Origin: an uncultured bacterium | Lineage (GTDB): Bacteria; Bdellovibrionota_B; Oligoflexia; CAYFLR01 | Assembly: GCA_964544765.1 (NCBI GenBank) | Contig: CAZJDM010000001.1 | Coordinates: 1,851-65,850, forward strand | Reading direction: 5' to 3' | Length of the DNA stretch: 64,000 bases | Part shown: piece after piece, positions 17,254-31,368 of the stretch | Layout: each line of letters begins with the position of its first letter | Numbering within the stretch: position 1 is the first letter of the stretch | Notes under the pieces: generated by a model | What the model was told of the DNA's origin: nothing | Database searches by the model: none | Seen by the model: only the letters and a program-made list of their open reading frames with translations | Position numbers and translations under genes: made by a program

Positions 17254-19668
17254 TTAGTATAAATTTTCCCGCCTAGCTCTAACTATAAATGGTATACTCA
17301 ACAATAGTATCATCATTAACAACGATCCTTTATCAGCAGAATTACTCTCCTGAATTGAGCAACTTCCACTATCTGGAGCTTTGCGATTAGCGCTGGTTGG
17401 TGGCTTTGCGGTTACTTTCTTACGGAAAGGTTTATTACTATCACGTAGGCTTTTTGCTTGACGACCTTGTTTTTTAATTCTACTTTGCATTGCTTCTACG
17501 GAACTTCCTGCCGGAACACCTAAAGGATTCCCCTTCTTGCCCCCCTTAGTTCCAGCGACCATATCTCTTGACCTATCTTGGACTAACTTAGGATTTCGTT
17601 TAGGAGCCTTACTTCCTGTTGAGATTCCTCCATTTGCTGAAGTCGAGCTTGAAGCTGAAGAAGTACCTGCACCTGCTTTAGTACCTGCACCTGCTTTAGT
17701 ACCTGCACCTGCTTTAGTACCTGCACCTGCCTTAGTACCTGTGCCTGCCTTAGTACCTGCTCCTGTTCCAGCACCAATTGATCCTGTATTATACTGACTA
17801 TCATAAGTCTTTATCTGTCTCTGAGCTTTTGAACCAATAGTATTAGCTTTACACTTTTGTACAGTCTCTGAATCCCATCCAGGTTGTTTAACACATGGAG
17901 TCAGGGCTACACACTGAAAGGAGAAATTACTACTTGCACTAGGTAAATTAATATCAGGGCAATATTTTTTCTGAATACGACTAACCCCACAAACCGAAGG
18001 AATATTTAACCTTTTCCAAAGGTTGCATTGATACCTAGCTATTTCCTGGGCTATCGCACTTTTTTCTGCCGCTTCTAATGAGGTAAGCACTACTTCTAAA
18101 GCATAATCCGCAAACACCAAAAGGTGTTGTTCGTTTTCCATCAAATTAAACCCCAATCCCATAATGGCACCATCGGTAGTACTGTCTAGTTTTGCAAAAA
18201 GAGAGCCTTTGGCTTGATTACTTCCAGGAATCTGCCTGGAATCATAACCCCCTGTATCTGGGGCAATTGGAATTAAGGCCTTAGCGTCTAAATTATCTTG
18301 ATGGTATATTATAACATTATCCACTAAAGCATTTTGACTATCATGTGAAACATATTTGGCAATATAACCTAATACATACGGTTGAGGTAAGTTGGTTATC
18401 ATTGGAATTAAGGCAACCGGTCCAAATGAAGGCCTGGTTGTTTGCTGTCTGCTATCTAGTAGTATTGCCATTGATTGAAAATTAGGCATCTCTCTTAAAG
18501 TCCAACCAGATGGATCATTTTCACTAAAGATCCCACTAAGTATTGATTTAATTCCCAGTTCCGTAAATCCAACACCTTCTTTAAATACTCCCCTAAGTTT
18601 TTTGCCTTCATAGTTTTCACCTTGTACCTTTGGAGCTAACTCATCTGACATGTTATCAAATATATCTTTAACTTCTTTGGACAATTTTCGATGAATGATA
18701 TATTTATCAGTTAAAAAATAGGATATTTGAGAAAAAGCGGTATAATAATCTTCCAAATCCAATTCTCCAGAAGCAGTTGAAGTACCAGAAGCAGTTGAAG
18801 TACCAGAAGCAGTTGAAGTACCAGAAGCAGTTGGAATACCAGAAGTAGCTGAAACATCAGAAGTAGCTGGAACATTGGTCGAAACCAAATTAGCTTCGGC
18901 TAATGTCCTAATTTGATTGGAATTCACTAAGGCACTAACAGTCGGCCCACTATCACTCTCAATGGCCTCACCCCAAGATGGATAGAGCTCAAAAGGATCA
19001 TTGCCATATAGGTCACCGGATGACGACTGATCTGTTGAATCGTCTGCTGGTTCTTCTGATTCATCTGAATCACTCTCATTACGACCTTCATCACCACCAA
19101 TAGTACTTTCAGAAACATTTGAATCTGAATCCACAGCAAGTGTATTACTATCGTTAACTGAGGCTTGATCGGTTGACTCAATAGCCCACTGATCTACGAA
19201 AGCTATTAAATCTCGATCTTCTATTTGTGCCATAAAAGCTTCTGGATGCTCTCCCACGGTTCCAGAAGTAATATGACCTTCTGCTTTCTCTTTGGCCCAT
19301 AAATAATGCCGGCATACCAAACCGAAATCACCGGTTATTTGATCCTCACCACAACTAACATCCCAAGTCCTCAAGTACCTTATGCAATTTTCACTGCTTA
19401 ATTTTGTTGTATCATTTTCATTAGTACCACAAAAAAGAGCCAAGCCATCAAGATATGCCTGTAATGCTTTTTTCTCCGCCTCAACAAGGGGTTCTCTTGA
19501 AACCACCCAGTTTAAGAAAAGCAAGCCTTTTCTAGCTGATGGTTTATCTGATAGACTTCTAGCACTCGAATCTAAGAATTTTACTTGTGATGTCCCAAGT
19601 CTACATCCCGACACTACCAAAAGACCAGATAATATAAATAATAAACTTATTAATTGTAATATACGCAT
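17254..19668 (-). CDS. large repeat-containing surface lipoprotein
   Basis: Signal peptide plus lipobox LLVVSGC. Acidic S/D/E-rich region. Tandem GTSTAS and KAGAGT hexapeptide repeats. The C-terminal tail CS..KGSLLMMILLLSIPFIVRARREN is a hydrophobic helix followed by basic residues. Confidence 0.55.
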   Translation of the reverse strand: MRILQLISLLFILSGLLVVSGCRLGTSQVKFLDSSARSLSDKPSARKGLLFLNWVVSREPLVEAEKKALQAYLDGLALFCGTNENDTTKLSSENCIRYLRTWDVSCGEDQITGDFGLVCRHYLWAKEKAEGHITSGTVGEHPEAFMAQIEDRDLIAFVDQWAIESTDQASVNDSNTLAVDSDSNVSESTIGGDEGRNESDSDESEEPADDSTDQSSSGDLYGNDPFELYPSWGEAIESDSGPTVSALVNSNQIRTLAEANLVSTNVPATSDVSATSGIPTASGTSTASGTSTASGTSTASGELDLEDYYTAFSQISYFLTDKYIIHRKLSKEVKDIFDNMSDELAPKVQGENYEGKKLRGVFKEGVGFTELGIKSILSGIFSENDPSGWTLREMPNFQSMAILLDSRQQTTRPSFGPVALIPMITNLPQPYVLGYIAKYVSHDSQNALVDNVIIYHQDNLDAKALIPIAPDTGGYDSRQIPGSNQAKGSLFAKLDSTTDGAIMGLGFNLMENEQHLLVFADYALEVVLTSLEAAEKSAIAQEIARYQCNLWKRLNIPSVCGVSRIQKKYCPDINLPSASSNFSFQCVALTPCVKQPGWDSETVQKCKANTIGSKAQRQIKTYDSQYNTGSIGAGTGAGTKAGTGTKAGAGTKAGAGTKAGAGTKAGAGTSSASSSTSANGGISTGSKAPKRNPKLVQDRSRDMVAGTKGGKKGNPLGVPAGSSVEAMQSRIKKQGRQAKSLRDSNKPFRKKVTAKPPTSANRKAPDSGSCSIQESNSADKGSLLMMILLLSIPFIVRARRENLY
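17663..17770. repeat. 18-bp tandem repeat (unit gtacctgcacctgcttta), about 5.5 copies, in-frame within the lipoprotein gene
   Basis: Three perfect copies are followed by progressively degenerate copies. Encodes (KAGAGT)n on the minus strand. Confidence 0.8.
18767..18874. repeat. 18-bp tandem repeat (unit ccagaagcagttgaagta), 3 perfect plus about 3 degenerate copies, in-frame within the same gene
   Basis: Encodes (GTSTAS)n on the minus strand. Confidence 0.8.
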
Positions 19669-19691
19669 ACCCCATCCCCTATAACGGGTGA

Positions 19692-20030
19692 TTACTTAAG
19701 TTTTTATCGGCCAATTTACAAAAACCCATTAATTTTTCCATATTTATTATTTATTTCAATGGGTTACTCAAAAGGAATCTTACTCACTCGATTGTAGTCG
19801 AAATAAGAATTTACGAACTTAAAGATCTCAAATATCCCAATGATGTTAAATATTCATTAGTATGTGTTAATAAAAAAACTGGCAAAAAAGTACTTTTTGA
19901 TAATCATCATCCCAAAGGCCATCATTTCCATATTGATGACAAGGAGTACGGCTATATTTTCAGCAATATTGATAATCTTATAGAAGATTTTAAAACGAGA
20001 ATAACAGAGCACTTTAATATAAAATTTTAA
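19692..20030 (+). other. 112-codon open frame with no in-frame ATG/GTG/TTG; His-rich small protein (HHPKGHHFH). Possible non-canonical start or pseudogene.
   Basis: Stop-to-stop frame ending TAA at 20028-20030. Translates ...VVEIRIYELKDLKYPNDVKYSLVCVNKKTGKKVLFDNHHPKGHHFHIDDKEYGYIFSNIDNLIEDFKTRITEHFNIKF. It is 13 nt upstream of the wHTH gene. Confidence 0.25.
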
Positions 20031-20043
20031 CAAGGGATATATT

Positions 20044-20412
20044 ATGAAAAAATTAATCGTGGCCCTGGAATCAAATAGTTCCTTTTTTAAATCAGCTAAA
20101 AAAGAGCTTAAAGATGTTCTTGATAAAGGAAAACGAGGTTCTACTGTTTATAGAATTTCATTTTCTGAGCGCAAAGACTTTAATCGATTTATGGCAAATA
20201 TCCACGTTCTTCAAGTAATTATAAAAGACGCTCCTATATCAATTAATGAGCTAGCAAAAATATTAAACGTTGATCGAAGTGGCATCGTTAGAATATTGAA
20301 GTTCTTTGAAGAATTTGAAATTGTTAAATACGACGAAATAAAGGTCGGCAAAAGAAAACAGAAAAAGCCAATCGTCGATTTTAAGAAAATAGAAATTGAT
20401 TTGGCGTCATGA
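20044..20412 (+). CDS. small winged-helix DNA-binding protein
   Basis: INELAKILNVDRSGIVRILKFFEEFEIV is a MarR/ArsR-like wHTH segment. 122 aa with a basic C-terminus. Confidence 0.4.
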   Translation: MKKLIVALESNSSFFKSAKKELKDVLDKGKRGSTVYRISFSERKDFNRFMANIHVLQVIIKDAPISINELAKILNVDRSGIVRILKFFEEFEIVKYDEIKVGKRKQKKPIVDFKKIEIDLAS

Positions 20413-20441
20413 AAAACTTAAAACATTACCCAAGCTCAGTG

Positions 20442-21740
20442 TTACCGCTTTAAGTTGACAACCTCCTCAATCATACTGTCAGTGGTTGTAATACAACGAG
20501 AATTGGCCTGAAACCCCCTTTGAGACATAATCATTTTAACAAACTCATTGGCCAAATCTACATTTGACTCTTCTAAGGAAGATGAGAAAACACTTCCCCG
20601 ATTTCCAGATTGAGCTAAACCAACACTGGGAGATCCAGACTCTACTGTCGCGTAAAAAGAAGCCATTCCAGCCTTTTTCAACCCATTTATGTTGTTAAAT
20701 GACGCCAGAGACAAACTACATAATTGGCGCTCAATTCCGTTAGAAAACACACCTCTCATAACGCCATCTAGATCAATCTTCATGGTCTTTAAGTTTCCTG
20801 TCTCATAACCATCTTGACTATGAGTAACCACTGTAGATGGAGTACTAGCGGAAGATGTTTCCCCAAGACCATCACCACCTTCTTCTAAAATATTTGTTCC
20901 AAAATCAAAGACTATTTTTTGTTCTTGTTCAACTCCCCCCGAAAAATTAGCCATAATATCATCATGCTCCTCGTTCAAAAGCTTTCCTTCCTGATCAAAA
21001 AATATCCTTCCAGAAGCAATCACCGAAAAAACACCTTTTTCTCCACCTTCTATTTCCTGACCTTCAACTCCAGCATACCAAGACCATATATTTTCGGTTC
21101 CCGGTTTTTTAGAAAAATATACATTAGTCTCATGAGGTGTGCCGGCCGAATCAAAAACAGTAACTGAAGTGGAAAAACTACTTGTGTTTTGTGGTCTATT
21201 AGAATTGAATTCTTCAAACGAGTCAGACCGTAAATCCAAATTAACTATCATTTTCACTTGTTTGGTTTTATTGGGTGGCAAATTGGTCTTTATTACCCTA
21301 ACATCGGTCAATTTAGGAATCAAGCGCCCTGAAGGAGATGCCATATAACCTTGGACGCGGCCATTATTACTGTCTACCATATAACCGTCTTTATCAAACT
21401 GAAAGGTTCCTTGCCTTGTATATAAAAGCCCTCCTGTTGAAGAAGAGGCCTTACTTTTTACAACAAAAAACCCGTCTCCCTGAACAGCGAGATCTGTTAA
21501 TCCTGACGTCCCAGTCACTCCTCCCTGAGAGAAGATAGTAGAAGTATTTCTTAAACGCGTACCTCGACCAATCTGAGCACCTCCACCCATATCCATCGAT
21601 AACATATCCTCGAATTCAGCCCGATCATACTTAAAACCTCTAGTATTGGAATTTGCTATATTATTAGCAACAATTCCCATACTGTCAGCATTGGCGTTTA
21701 ATCCAGTTACGCCACTATATAATGCTTGCGATATGGCCAT
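20442..21740 (-). CDS. flgE: flagellar hook protein FlgE
   Basis: N-terminal MAISQALYSGVTGLNANADSMGIVANNIANSNTRGFK and C-terminal GFQANSRCITTTDSMIEEVVNLKR are the conserved flagellar rod/hook termini. 432 aa. Confidence 0.85.
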   Translation of the reverse strand: MAISQALYSGVTGLNANADSMGIVANNIANSNTRGFKYDRAEFEDMLSMDMGGGAQIGRGTRLRNTSTIFSQGGVTGTSGLTDLAVQGDGFFVVKSKASSSTGGLLYTRQGTFQFDKDGYMVDSNNGRVQGYMASPSGRLIPKLTDVRVIKTNLPPNKTKQVKMIVNLDLRSDSFEEFNSNRPQNTSSFSTSVTVFDSAGTPHETNVYFSKKPGTENIWSWYAGVEGQEIEGGEKGVFSVIASGRIFFDQEGKLLNEEHDDIMANFSGGVEQEQKIVFDFGTNILEEGGDGLGETSSASTPSTVVTHSQDGYETGNLKTMKIDLDGVMRGVFSNGIERQLCSLSLASFNNINGLKKAGMASFYATVESGSPSVGLAQSGNRGSVFSSSLEESNVDLANEFVKMIMSQRGFQANSRCITTTDSMIEEVVNLKR

Positions 21741-29739: not shown

Positions 29740-31368
29740 CTATTTAGCTGATGATGAAGGCGACATCATCATTCTAAGAGCCTCCGTTGTTTTCTGTGGC
29801 TCATGTTTTGCCAGATACATAATTTGATCTCGAATACTCAACTCTTCAAATGGTACTTCTTCGGTTATTTCAACCTTTTTCATCGGTGTCTTTTCAAAAT
29901 CAGGTTTAAACTCTTCCACCTCTGCATCAGCTGGTTTAATCTTATCTGGATCATATACTAACCATCGTAAATATGGTTTTACTACAAAAATAAAGAAGAT
30001 AATTAAACTTAGAGCCACTGAAGAAATCATTACTATATCTCGCCAAACTTTTTTCTCTTCCATAATAGCAACTTGTCTCTCTTCAAGGGCAAAAACATCC
30101 TCCTTAAATCTCATATTTTCTAAGGTTATTTGATCTCCACGTTTATCATCAAAACCAACAGACTGTCTGATAAGAGCTTCTAGCTTAGCCATTTCCTCTT
30201 TGCCTCTGGCTTCATAAGTAGGAAGATCCTTGGGAGTGGCTCCAGGTATATATTTACCATCTATAAGTACAGATACAGACAATCTTTTAATGGCTCCAGA
30301 TTCTTCAACCGTTTGAGATATTATTTTCCCGATTTCATAATTAACAGTCTGAGTAGATCGTGTTTGAGAAGAACTACTTTTATTTACCTGCACTTCGACA
30401 TCTTCATTAGGTAGATTGGCTTTAGATCCCGGAACACCGGTGGGATTTAGACCGACTCCTTTCATTGCGTCATCTGTAACTTGAGACGATCTCAATACTT
30501 GCTGTTCAGGATCATATTGTTCTTTGGTATACGATACTTGACCAAAATCAATGTCCGCGGTTACCGAAGCCATTACTTTATCCATACCGACAACTCTACC
30601 GATCAAGGTACGAATCTTACTTACATAATCCTTTTCTATTCTTCTTTTATACTCCGACTTAGATTTAGACAAACTTCCTGCTGACAGATCCTGCTCATCT
30701 TCAGTTAAAATGTTTCCCTCTCCATCTACGATGGTTATATTACCAATACTTAAGCCTTCAACACTTCTGGACACTAAATATTGTATCCCGCGCACTTGTT
30801 TTTTGGACAGTGTTTGCCCTCTTTTCAATTTTATATAAATGGCCGCAGAAGGTTCTCTTTTATCCTCTTCAAACAAACGATTTTTAGGTGATACAATATG
30901 CACTCGAGAACTTTTTATCGGTTTTAAGCGGGTAATAGTACGACTTAGCTCTCCCTCTAATGCCCGCCTCTTGTTTATATCCAATTCAAAGTCAGTTACC
31001 GCGAAGTTGGTTTGATCAAATTTCTCCCATCCGATCACACCCCCAGAAGGTAATCCTTCTTGAGACAATTCTAATCTTACATCCACATCCTTTCCGTCTT
31101 GGGCCAGTAACCTATTACCTACAAATTTATAATCCTTTATATTTTTTTTCCGTAAAACATTTTCCATGGCCAACATATCTTCATCAGTCAAATCATCATA
31201 AATGGTTTTGTAACGCTCCTGTTTTTCCAATAACAACATACTCAACATTGACACCAGAATAATACCTAATAATGAAAACAGAACTATTTTTCTAGTAACC
31301 GTTAAATTGTTATAAAAATCTTTGTTCTTACTCAAAAACTGGTCAATAAAAACTCTAAAACTTGGCAA
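29740..31368 (-). CDS. fliF: flagellar MS-ring protein FliF
   Basis: 542 aa with N-terminal and C-terminal TM segments and YscJ/FliF ring domains. Confidence 0.85.
   Translation of the reverse strand: MPSFRVFIDQFLSKNKDFYNNLTVTRKIVLFSLLGIILVSMLSMLLLEKQERYKTIYDDLTDEDMLAMENVLRKKNIKDYKFVGNRLLAQDGKDVDVRLELSQEGLPSGGVIGWEKFDQTNFAVTDFELDINKRRALEGELSRTITRLKPIKSSRVHIVSPKNRLFEEDKREPSAAIYIKLKRGQTLSKKQVRGIQYLVSRSVEGLSIGNITIVDGEGNILTEDEQDLSAGSLSKSKSEYKRRIEKDYVSKIRTLIGRVVGMDKVMASVTADIDFGQVSYTKEQYDPEQQVLRSSQVTDDAMKGVGLNPTGVPGSKANLPNEDVEVQVNKSSSSQTRSTQTVNYEIGKIISQTVEESGAIKRLSVSVLIDGKYIPGATPKDLPTYEARGKEEMAKLEALIRQSVGFDDKRGDQITLENMRFKEDVFALEERQVAIMEEKKVWRDIVMISSVALSLIIFFIFVVKPYLRWLVYDPDKIKPADAEVEEFKPDFEKTPMKKVEITEEVPFEELSIRDQIMYLAKHEPQKTTEALRMMMSPSSSAK

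What the first reader, a model, noticed from the sequence alone, without database searches (positions are those of the whole stretch)
19692..20412. Start-less His-rich small ORF coupled to a wHTH gene: cryptic two-gene cassette between the lipoprotein and the flagellar operon
A 112-codon open frame contains no in-frame ATG, GTG or TTG. It encodes a conserved-looking core VLFDNHHPKGHHFHIDDKEYGYIF and ends 13 nt before a 122-aa winged-helix DNA-binding protein. A small globular His-cluster protein plus a small HTH partner is the layout of many toxin-antitoxin and addiction or defence modules. The missing start suggests either non-canonical initiation (ATT or ATA), programmed recoding, or a decaying module. 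It lies in a short non-housekeeping gap.
Basis: partly seen in the sequence, partly recalled or inferred. Interest (0 to 1): 0.5.

Follow-up and report, generated by a model that had tools for sequence, protein, structure and literature searches.

The report
Toxin-antitoxin pair with beheaded toxin gene
This is a small toxin-antitoxin gene pair of the already described TumE-TumA family in which the toxin gene has lost its front end (promoter, start codon and first nine codons) while the antitoxin gene is intact, so it is most likely an ordinary, recently disabled addiction module rather than a new kind of gene.

Summary
Bases 19692-20030 (+) are a 112-codon open frame with no ATG, GTG or TTG. 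It ends 13 nt before a 122-aa winged-helix gene (20044-20412). Eight independent metagenome assemblies carry the identical sequence, so it is not an assembly error.

The frame is a TumE (DUF6516, PF20126) toxin. The partner is an HVO_A0114-type wHTH protein (PF25212). The layout matches TumE-TumA toxin-antitoxin systems (Durairaj et al. 2023).

About 550 relatives are almost all exactly 96 aa, and nearly all relatives examined at DNA level have a canonical start. The two closest relatives (L105, L009) share a promoter, a leader, an ATG and nine N-terminal codons. The window has none of these. Homology to both starts abruptly at 19770 and the upstream DNA is unrelated.

The lost codons form most of strand β1, which AlphaFold2 models confidently in an intact relative. 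The remaining 86 codons keep every invariant residue and show no excess of lineage-specific changes. The truncation is therefore either recent or tolerated.

Best reading (about 0.65): a freshly 5'-truncated, untranslated toxin beside an intact antitoxin. Rivals are weak initiation at ATT or ATA (about 0.2) and a -1 slip or reinitiation from an out-of-frame ATG (about 0.05). This is a degenerate member of a known family, of low interest.

The parts
19692..20030 (+).
   Evidence: no ATG, GTG or TTG in frame. Preceded by TGA at 19689-91.
19770..20030 (+). tumE body: codons equivalent to residues 10-95 of the closest intact relatives, plus the stop. Contains the whole Pfam TumE domain
   Evidence: PF20126 at 43.3 bits, profile positions 4-80 of 81. 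blastn HSPs to L105 and L009 both begin exactly at 19770. All invariant family columns are retained. AF2 core has five strands and a C-terminal helix, pLDDT 83.6.
19899..19931 (+). Family signature DNHHPKGHHFH (His cluster)
   Evidence: D, N, H, H, P, K, H and H are invariant in the 27-sequence alignment; most of these remain invariant (one His >=90%) in the 73-sequence alignment.
19669..19769 (.). Upstream segment with no homology to the promoter, leader or first nine codons of the closest tumE relatives. It is also the divergent 5' region of the lipoprotein gene (ATG 19668, minus strand)
   Evidence: Ungapped identity to L105 and L009 is 1-6 of 15 per window, which is random level. L105 against L009 keeps 5-12 of 15, 57% overall. 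No blastn HSP. Promoter-like matches on both strands are no more frequent than in shuffles.
19759..19797 (+). Out-of-frame 12-codon ORF (ATG...TAG, MGYSKGILLTRL) overlapping the start of the tumE body. It contains A_AAA_G (19770-19774), and its stop overlaps in-frame ATT 19791 / GTA 19794
   Evidence: sequence. No stable RNA structure downstream, z = +1.17. The ATG lies in the non-homologous segment.
19791..19793 (+). In-frame ATT, the best near-cognate start candidate. It coincides with the first residue of strand beta2. AAGGA lies 14 nt upstream
   Evidence: The spacing is longer than the usual 5-10 nt.
19740..19742 (+). In-frame ATA exactly 96 codons before the stop (the family's modal length). 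No SD upstream
   Evidence: The coincidence is estimated at about 0.3 in AT-rich DNA (my estimate).
20032..20037 (+). AAGGGA Shine-Dalgarno of tumA inside the 13-nt spacer, 6 nt before the ATG
   Evidence: sequence. L009 and L105 also have a spacer carrying an SD-like purine stretch (AAGGAG, AAGAGG); L106 has a spacer without an obvious one. Most other relatives have an ATGA overlap.
20044..20412 (+). tumA-like antitoxin/repressor gene: 122-aa HVO_A0114-type winged helix-turn-helix, intact
   Evidence: PF25212 at 32.3 bits against a cutoff of 27.6, plus HTH_24. It is 80%, 77% and 72% identical to the partners of tumE in L009, L105 and L106. 59 of 98 related loci have a phmmer-detectable homologue directly downstream of tumE.

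Best explanation
The two frames are a type II toxin-antitoxin cassette of the TumE-TumA superfamily, in toxin-first order. The toxin is a DUF6516 protein. In tested members of the family it blocks protein synthesis, possibly as an RNase. The antitoxin is an HVO_A0114-type winged-helix protein. By analogy it would bind the toxin and repress the operon.

In this genome the cassette sits between the lipoprotein gene and flgE and is more AT-rich than both. The toxin gene has lost everything upstream of codon 10: the promoter, the leader, the ATG and the nine codons that form most of strand beta1. That segment has been replaced by unrelated intergenic DNA. With no canonical start and no usable ribosome-binding site, the toxin is most likely not translated, or only in traces. 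The antitoxin gene keeps its own Shine-Dalgarno sequence and remains intact.

The toxin body shows no further damage, so the truncation is evolutionarily recent.

Shown: family membership of both products, the truncation breakpoint, and the intactness of the toxin body and of tumA. Inferred: that the toxin is not translated, that tumA is still expressed, and that the event is recent.
For: Both products pass Pfam gathering thresholds.

The TumE-TumA family was validated as a translation-inhibiting TA system (PMC10584680).

546 relatives score E<=1e-10 and nearly all are 96 aa. In about 95 related loci the toxin has ATG (GTG in GC-rich lineages) 52-55 codons before DNHHPKG. 59 of 98 loci have a TumA-like ORF directly downstream.

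The closest relatives L105 and L009 encode 95-aa toxins starting M(T/K)(T/A)K(I/L)(I/L)R(A/S)LKRN. They share 57% nucleotide identity through codons 1-9, the leader and a TTGACA-17-(T/C)ACACT promoter. The window is at random level there (12-27% upstream, 30-37% in codons 1-9). Its blastn HSPs to both relatives begin exactly at 19770.

In an intact relative, AF2 places a confident strand beta1 at residues 4-13 (pLDDT 95). The window's equivalent N-terminus is modelled as disordered (pLDDT below 50). M1, A3, L5 and K10 are at least 90% conserved in the family.

No SD lies 5-10 nt before any in-frame near-cognate codon.

Broken tumE copies are common. L027 has an in-frame stop, L103, L104 and L054 have frameshifts, and L082 and L083 are truncated. 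A Halococcus copy is cut by ISH3.

The sequence is identical in 8 assemblies.
Against: The 86 retained codons are fully open in a 28% GC gene. They keep every invariant residue and carry fewer lineage-specific amino-acid changes (5) than L105 (7) or L009 (9). No relaxation of constraint is visible. This is also what a still-functional gene would show.

The frame stays open 26 codons upstream of the breakpoint. It contains ATA/ATT codons at about the family's start position.

The complete Pfam domain is retained. Only the less conserved N-terminal strand is missing.

No expression data are available. No polymorphism exists among the available contigs to test for selection.
Confidence: 0.65

Rival explanations
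1. The truncated toxin is still made at a low level by initiation at a near-cognate codon. Candidates are ATT 19791 (product starts at strand beta2, 79 aa), or ATA 19740 / ATT 19746 / ATT 19749 (about 94-96 aa with a novel N-terminus). The result would be a functional TA pair with a very low toxin:antitoxin translation ratio.
For: The body is intact and shows no excess of lineage-specific substitutions. The whole Pfam domain is retained. ATA 19740 gives exactly the family's modal 96 codons. AAGGA lies upstream of ATT 19791, and the folded core begins there in the AF2 model. tumA is also still under constraint: 13 lineage-specific changes against 12 and 7.
Against: From established knowledge, ATT and ATA initiate at roughly 1% or less of ATG efficiency. 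AAGGA is 14 nt from ATT 19791, beyond the usual spacing, and nothing SD-like precedes ATA/ATT 19740-19751. None of about 95 related loci or about 550 proteins gives a precedent for a non-canonical start or a short form. Strand beta1, which is conserved and confidently modelled, would be missing or replaced. The ATA coincidence is expected by chance about 30% of the time in this AT-rich DNA (my estimate).
Confidence: 0.2
2. Translation starts at the out-of-frame ATG 19759. It reaches the toxin frame either by a programmed -1 slip of tRNA-Lys on A_AAA_G (19770-74), or by termination at TAG 19795 followed by reinitiation at the overlapping ATT 19791.
For: ATG 19759 is the only canonical start codon in any + frame between the upstream TGA (19689-91) and the toxin's homologous body, and it is in the +1 register. 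A -1 shift on TCA_AAA_G re-pairs perfectly and enters the conserved frame at AAA AGG. A TATTAT hexamer sits 8 nt upstream of this ATG, which recalls the leaderless-looking layout of many relatives. The short ORF's stop overlaps ATT 19791.
Against: There is no full X_XXY_YYZ heptamer. There is no downstream stimulatory structure: MFE z = +1.17, and 180 of 200 shuffles fold at least as well. There is no SD-like stimulator upstream and no Rfam match. All relatives use a plain in-frame ATG or GTG. The ATG lies in DNA unrelated to the relatives. AAAAGG is simply the conserved Lys-Arg codon pair, also present in L105 and L009.
Confidence: 0.05
3. The missing start is an assembly or sequencing artefact, such as an indel or a chimeric join, and the real genome carries an intact tumE.
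For: Several related loci from long-read MAGs show frameshifts that could be errors.
Against: Eight contigs from different samples, assemblers and archives are 100% identical over 19600-20060. They differ in the repeat length of the adjacent lipoprotein gene. The defect is absence of about 100 nt of homologous sequence, not a single indel.
Confidence: 0.02

Closest known systems
TumE-TumA toxin-antitoxin superfamily (DUF6516/PF20126 toxin; Durairaj et al., Nature 2023, PMC10584680)
   Same: The toxin frame matches PF20126 above threshold and has the DNHHPKGHHxH signature. It has an alpha+beta predicted fold with no confident PDB match (best Foldseek E 0.38; the paper reports likewise for HHpred and Foldseek). 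It forms a two-gene cassette with a small DNA-binding partner.
   Different: The six validated pairs are gammaproteobacterial (subcluster 1a), and in most subclusters the toxin lies downstream of its partner. Here the toxin comes first, the partner is an HVO_A0114-type wHTH, and the toxin belongs to a 96-aa subfamily centred on Bdellovibrionota-like MAGs. No pair of this subfamily has been tested in the literature I could search. This copy lacks its 5' end.
Intact sister cassettes L105 (Logan DRR203914) and L009 (ENA ERZ24794645)
   Same: TumE body is 65-67% identical and TumA 77-81% identical at the amino-acid level. Gene order is the same, and a short spacer carries its own SD before tumA.
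   Different: Both have a TTGACA-17-(T/C)ACACT promoter, a leader, an ATG and nine further N-terminal codons. The window has unrelated DNA upstream of 19770. Their genomic contexts also differ, so the cassette is mobile.
Toxin-first type II TA operons (for example higBA, mqsRA, hicAB), recalled from general knowledge
   Same: The toxin gene precedes an HTH antitoxin that has its own ribosome-binding site.
   Different: There is no sequence or fold relationship. In those systems the toxin has a canonical start.
Decayed TA loci and orphan antitoxins, including broken DUF6516 genes (L027, L054, L103, L104; Halococcus plasmid4 copy cut by ISH3, bioRxiv 10.1101/2022.08.16.504008)
   Same: The toxin is disabled while the neighbouring HTH gene stays intact.
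   Different: Here the lesion is a clean 5' truncation or replacement, with no other damage and no mobile element visible at the breakpoint.

Membership tests
TumE (PF20126 / DUF6516) toxin | Sequence matches the family profile above the curated threshold | tested here: met
   43.3 bits against a gathering score of 23.4, profile positions 4-80 of 81.
TumE (PF20126 / DUF6516) toxin | Conserved residues of the subfamily are present (K10, E20, DNHHPKG-H-H, Y, L, DF) | tested here: met
   All 14 invariant columns and the near-invariant columns of the homologous part are retained. N-terminal M1, A3 and L5 are absent.
TumE (PF20126 / DUF6516) toxin | Predicted alpha+beta fold: antiparallel sheet packed by a helix, no PDB relative | tested here: inconclusive
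   The core strands and the C-terminal helix are modelled at pLDDT 83.6 and match the elements of the intact relative (pLDDT 95.2). Strand beta1 is missing or disordered. No Foldseek PDB hit has E below 0.3.
TumE (PF20126 / DUF6516) toxin | Complete gene with a translation start at the family position (about 96 aa) | tested here: not met
   There is no ATG, GTG or TTG in 112 codons. Homology to intact relatives begins at codon 10.
TumE (PF20126 / DUF6516) toxin | Growth inhibition on expression, through inhibition of translation | not testable with these tools
   Requires expression assays as in PMC10584680.
TumA-type antitoxin (HVO_A0114, PF25212 wHTH) | Profile match above threshold and a winged-helix DNA-binding domain | tested here: met
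   PF25212 at 32.3 bits against 27.6. HTH_24 at 22.6 against 21.9. Weaker MarR and TrmB hits.
TumA-type antitoxin (HVO_A0114, PF25212 wHTH) | Encoded immediately next to a tumE gene, co-directional | tested here: met
   13-nt spacer. The same pairing occurs in 59 of 98 related loci by single-sequence phmmer and in L009, L105 and L106.
TumA-type antitoxin (HVO_A0114, PF25212 wHTH) | Neutralises the cognate toxin and binds the operator | not testable with these tools
   No complex prediction or assay was available.
Functional type II TA operon | Shared autoregulated promoter or operator upstream of the first gene | tested here: not met
   The promoter shared by L105 and L009 is absent. Promoter-like matches in the window do not exceed shuffles, 8 against 5.8 +/- 2.6. 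I estimate that the 8-nt inverted repeat 19723-30 / 19758-65 is at chance level for this AT-rich region.
Programmed -1 ribosomal frameshift site | Slippery sequence, a stimulatory element, and conservation | tested here: not met
   Only a minimal A_AAA_G is present. There is no stable downstream structure, z = +1.17. There is no Rfam match. All relatives are in frame.
Non-canonical (AUU/AUA) initiation | Near-cognate codon with a ribosome-binding site at functional spacing, conserved in relatives | tested here: not met
   AAGGA is 14 nt before ATT 19791. No SD precedes ATA/ATT 19740-51. Relatives use ATG or GTG. Actual initiation is not testable here.

The most novel reading that the evidence does not exclude
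The beheaded toxin may not be dead. It could be kept, with a replaced N-terminus or without strand beta1, and translated at a very low level by an unconventional route. Candidate routes are AUU or AUA initiation, reinitiation after the 12-codon out-of-frame ORF whose stop overlaps ATT 19791, or a -1 slip on A_AAA_G. That would give a TumE-TumA module whose toxin dose is set by start-codon-less translation. It would also explain why the body shows no decay and why tumA is still conserved.
Probability: 0.12. Interest if true: 0.55.

Novelty: new member of a known kind. Interest (0 to 1): 0.2.

Why it matters
The finding matters little in itself. It is one more copy, and a damaged one, of a toxin-antitoxin family named in 2023.

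It is useful in three ways:
- Annotation. Gene callers skip the start-less toxin in every assembly of this population and leave what looks like a lone HTH regulator. The regulator is in fact the antitoxin of a TumE-TumA pair.
- TA decay. It catches a toxin-first module just after the toxin was disabled at its 5' end, before any secondary decay.
- Untested subfamily. The comparison set points to a large 96-aa, toxin-first TumE subfamily paired with HVO_A0114-type partners. Its promoters look leaderless and palindrome-flanked. This subfamily would be the more rewarding target for experiments.

Tried and rejected
1. Internal 16-nt deletion. I first thought a deletion between ATG 19759 and the Lys codon explained the frame offset: 11 nt here against 27 nt in L105 and L009, with TTACTCA repeated 16 nt apart. 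I rejected this because everything upstream of 19770, including that ATG, is unrelated to the relatives.

2. Point mutation of the start (ATG to ATA at 19740, or GTG to GTA at 19794). The surrounding codons show no homology, and the GTG in L009 is only a gene-caller choice inside a longer ATG-initiated ORF.

3. Relocated 5' fragment (inversion or insertion). A search of the window for the relatives' promoter motif and N-terminal peptide gave only chance-level hits.

4. Known RNA element or frameshift stimulator. Rfam found nothing near threshold. The fold is no better than shuffles.

5. Defence-system membership. PADLOC has no hit for the toxin. The wHTH gives only generic CasR/Csa3-type HTH hits.

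6. Fold relatives in the PDB. None.

7. Phage or plasmid carriage of this subfamily. No viral-contig or PLSDB match.

8. Operator hunt. The 8-nt inverted repeat flanking TATTAT and the promoter-like hits are within chance expectation.

9. Population test for selection. All available contigs are identical, so this was not possible.

10. The source genome is not among the GTDB representatives, so the organism could not be named.

Full report
**Observation**

Bases 19692-20027 (+) read as 112 sense codons followed by TAA at 20028-30. The frame opens after a TGA at 19689-91 and contains no ATG, GTG or TTG. Thirteen nucleotides later, after an AAGGGA Shine-Dalgarno at 20032-37, a 122-codon ORF starts at ATG 20044 and ends at 20412.

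In-frame ATG/GTG/TTG make up 4.6% of codons in the window's long ORFs. A 112-codon stretch without one therefore has P of about 0.005 (0.009 empirically). Only two of 71 open frames of at least 100 codons in the window lack a start.

The exact TumA-like protein occurs on 16 metagenome contigs. The eight that were fetched come from ENA, JGI and Logan and from different samples. All are 100% identical to the window over 19600-20060, while the adjacent lipoprotein gene varies from 792 to 816 codons. The start-less state is real and not an assembly error. No gene caller called the upstream frame.

**What the two products are**

The upstream frame matches Pfam PF20126 (TumE, formerly DUF6516) at 43.3 bits against a cutoff of 23.4, over profile positions 4-80 of 81. 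The downstream protein matches PF25212 (HVO_A0114, a winged HTH) at 32.3 bits against 27.6. NCBIfam and PADLOC add nothing specific.

TumE-TumA was defined by Durairaj et al. (Nature 2023, PMC10584680). DUF6516 proteins from six gammaproteobacteria stopped E. coli growth, and the adjacent partners neutralised them. One toxin reduced 35S-methionine incorporation, and an RNase activity was proposed but not shown. No PDB relative was found.

My AlphaFold2 model of the window's frame (19740-20027, 73-sequence alignment) has mean pLDDT 83.6. It contains five strands and a C-terminal helix and has no Foldseek PDB match better than E = 0.38.

**Relatives**

Pattern scans found 80 genome loci and 15 metagenome loci that encode relatives. 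The closest are in Bdellovibrionota, Oligoflexia and Bacteriovoracaceae MAGs, and others are in Elusimicrobia, Binatia and further groups. A profile search returned 546 proteins at E<=1e-10. Nearly all are exactly 96 aa, and several are named 'DUF6516 family protein'.

In these loci the toxin starts with ATG (GTG in GC-rich lineages) 52-55 codons before DNHHPKG. In most of them the toxin stop overlaps the partner's ATG (ATGA). In 59 of 98 loci single-sequence phmmer recognises the downstream ORF as a homologue of the window's wHTH protein. The toxin-first TumE + HVO_A0114 pair is therefore a widespread, conserved cassette.

The window's source genome is not among the GTDB representatives, so I cannot name the organism.

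**Why the start is missing**

A search with the antitoxin found three closer cassettes: L009, L105 and the partial L106. Their TumA identities are 80%, 77% and 72%. Both L105 and L009 encode 95-aa toxins beginning M(T/K)(T/A)K(I/L)(I/L)R(A/S)LKRNIT. The 78-aa GTG-initiated protein in the database (P0001) is a gene-caller truncation of the L009 ORF.

I anchored an ungapped comparison on the conserved Lys codon (19770 in the window):
- Downstream, the window matches L105 and L009 at 6-15 of 15 nt per block.
- Upstream, the match falls to 1-6 of 15, which is random for this composition.
- L105 and L009 stay 57% identical to each other through codons 1-9, the leader and a TTGACA-17-(T/C)ACACT promoter.
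- blastn HSPs of the window against both relatives begin exactly at 19770 and run to 20405.

The window therefore lacks the ancestral promoter, leader, ATG and first nine codons. The cause is a 5' truncation or replacement, not a mutated start codon.

The DNA now upstream (19669-19769) is the divergent 5' region of the lipoprotein gene. The 26 'codons' it adds to the open frame are T-rich and unlike any relative's N-terminus. No copy of the lost fragment is present elsewhere in the window.

The cassette is 30% GC (tumE body 28%) against about 40% in both flanking genes. L105 and L009 sit in different contexts, which is consistent with a mobile cassette inserted here.

**What was lost**

In the intact relative P0006, AlphaFold2 (pLDDT 95.2) places a confident strand beta1 at residues 4-13, paired with beta2 at residues 17-25. 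M1, A3, L5 and K10 are at least 90% conserved across 73 family members.

In the window's model the first 14 residues are below pLDDT 50 and unstructured. The first strand begins at model residue 18, which is codon I34 (ATT 19791). Any product would lack most of beta1.

**What was not lost**

The remaining 86 codons are open and keep all invariant and near-invariant family residues. In the three-way comparison they carry 5 lineage-specific amino-acid changes, against 7 in L105 and 9 in L009. TumA carries 13, 12 and 7. Pairwise dN/dS is about 0.06, with dS saturated.

No relaxation of constraint is detectable. Either the truncation is very recent relative to the divergence from these relatives, or the remnant still functions.

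**Could it still be translated?**

In-frame near-cognate codons exist at ATT 19728, ATA 19740, ATT 19746/19749, ATT 19791, ATA 19803 and ATT 19809. Only ATT 19791 has an SD-like AAGGA upstream, and that is 14 nt away. About half of the window's long ORFs show an SD within 4-16 nt of the start. ATA 19740 would give exactly 96 codons, but in this AT-rich DNA I estimate such a coincidence at about 0.3.

An out-of-frame ATG at 19759 opens a 12-codon ORF (MGYSKGILLTRL*). A -1 slip on TCA_AAA_G would enter the toxin frame, and its TAG overlaps ATT 19791. Several points argue against either route:
- The RNA from 19750 to 19860 folds no better than shuffles (z = +1.17).
- Rfam finds nothing.
- AAAAGG is simply the conserved Lys-Arg codon pair.
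- The ATG lies in the non-homologous DNA.
- No relative uses recoding.

Promoter-like matches (for example TTTACA-18-CATATT, 19715-19744) are no more frequent than in shuffles. I estimate that the 8-nt inverted repeat 19723-30 / 19758-65 is within chance expectation.

**Base rates**

Damaged tumE copies are common among the relatives:
- L027 has an in-frame TAA at codon 15.
- L054, L103 and L104 have frameshifts.
- L082 and L083 are truncated.
- A Halococcus plasmid copy is cut by an ISH3 element next to its HTH gene.

No relative shows a non-canonical start.

**Verdict**

This is a TumE-TumA toxin-antitoxin cassette, a known family. Its toxin gene has been beheaded at codon 10. I put the probabilities at:
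- about 0.65 that the toxin is no longer made and the wHTH gene survives as an orphan antitoxin/regulator with its own SD;
- about 0.2 that weak near-cognate initiation still yields some truncated toxin;
- about 0.05 for frameshift or reinitiation from ATG 19759;
- about 0.02 for an artefact.

The cassette is not a new kind of system. Interest is low.

Noticed in passing
L010-L104 (for example L072 2956-3000, L050, L015, L022), 45 nt upstream of the tumE starts: In most related loci tumE has no Shine-Dalgarno (55 of 77). A TTGACA-like -35, a -10-like hexamer and a palindrome of the type (T)ATGGTA-N-TACCAT(A) or ATTGGT-N-ACCAAT end right at the ATG (48 of 77 have an inverted repeat of at least 6 nt). 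This looks like leaderless transcripts with an operator over the promoter. It is a testable TumA binding site for the untested toxin-first subfamily.
   Followed up: partly
L026 2923-3615: In one Bacteriovoracaceae MAG the TumE and TumA-like parts are a single 231-codon frame with no stop between them. It is either a natural toxin-antitoxin fusion or a lost stop codon.
   Followed up: no
window 17254-19668 (-) and L001-L007: The 804-aa lipoprotein next to the cassette has low-complexity repeats (TSGTSTAS..., GTKAGAGTKAG...). Its length varies (792, 804, 810 or 816 aa) among contigs that are otherwise identical in the cassette. This is repeat-number polymorphism within the population.
   Followed up: no
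L027 2947-3255; L054; L103 3001-3239; L104 3001-3215; L082; L083: Several relatives carry damaged tumE genes: an in-frame TAA at codon 15, frameshifts in A-runs, or truncations. Some come from long-read MAGs and may be sequencing errors, while at least L104 comes from a JGI metagenome contig and so may be genuine.
   Followed up: partly
window 20410-20444: tumA (+) and flgE (-) converge with only 29 nt between their stop codons, and the scan found no terminator-like hairpin. Transcription from the cassette could run antisense into the flagellar hook gene.
   Followed up: no
window 29828 (+), 101 codons: This is the only other open frame of at least 100 codons in the window without ATG, GTG or TTG. 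It lies opposite a long minus-strand ORF (29740-31368), so it is probably an antisense shadow frame.
   Followed up: no
window 20031-20043; L009 1011-1025; L105 438-446; L106 200-240: The window's subclade separates tumE and tumA by a short spacer, which carries an SD-like purine stretch in the window, L009 and L105. Most other relatives overlap the two genes as ATGA. This is a shift from coupled to independent antitoxin translation, and it would let tumA survive loss of toxin translation.
   Followed up: partly
window 19669-20441 against the flanks: The cassette is 30% GC (tumE body 28%) against about 40% for the lipoprotein and flgE genes and 34% for the whole window. This is consistent with horizontal acquisition. 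No direct repeats or mobile-element genes were seen at its ends.
   Followed up: partly
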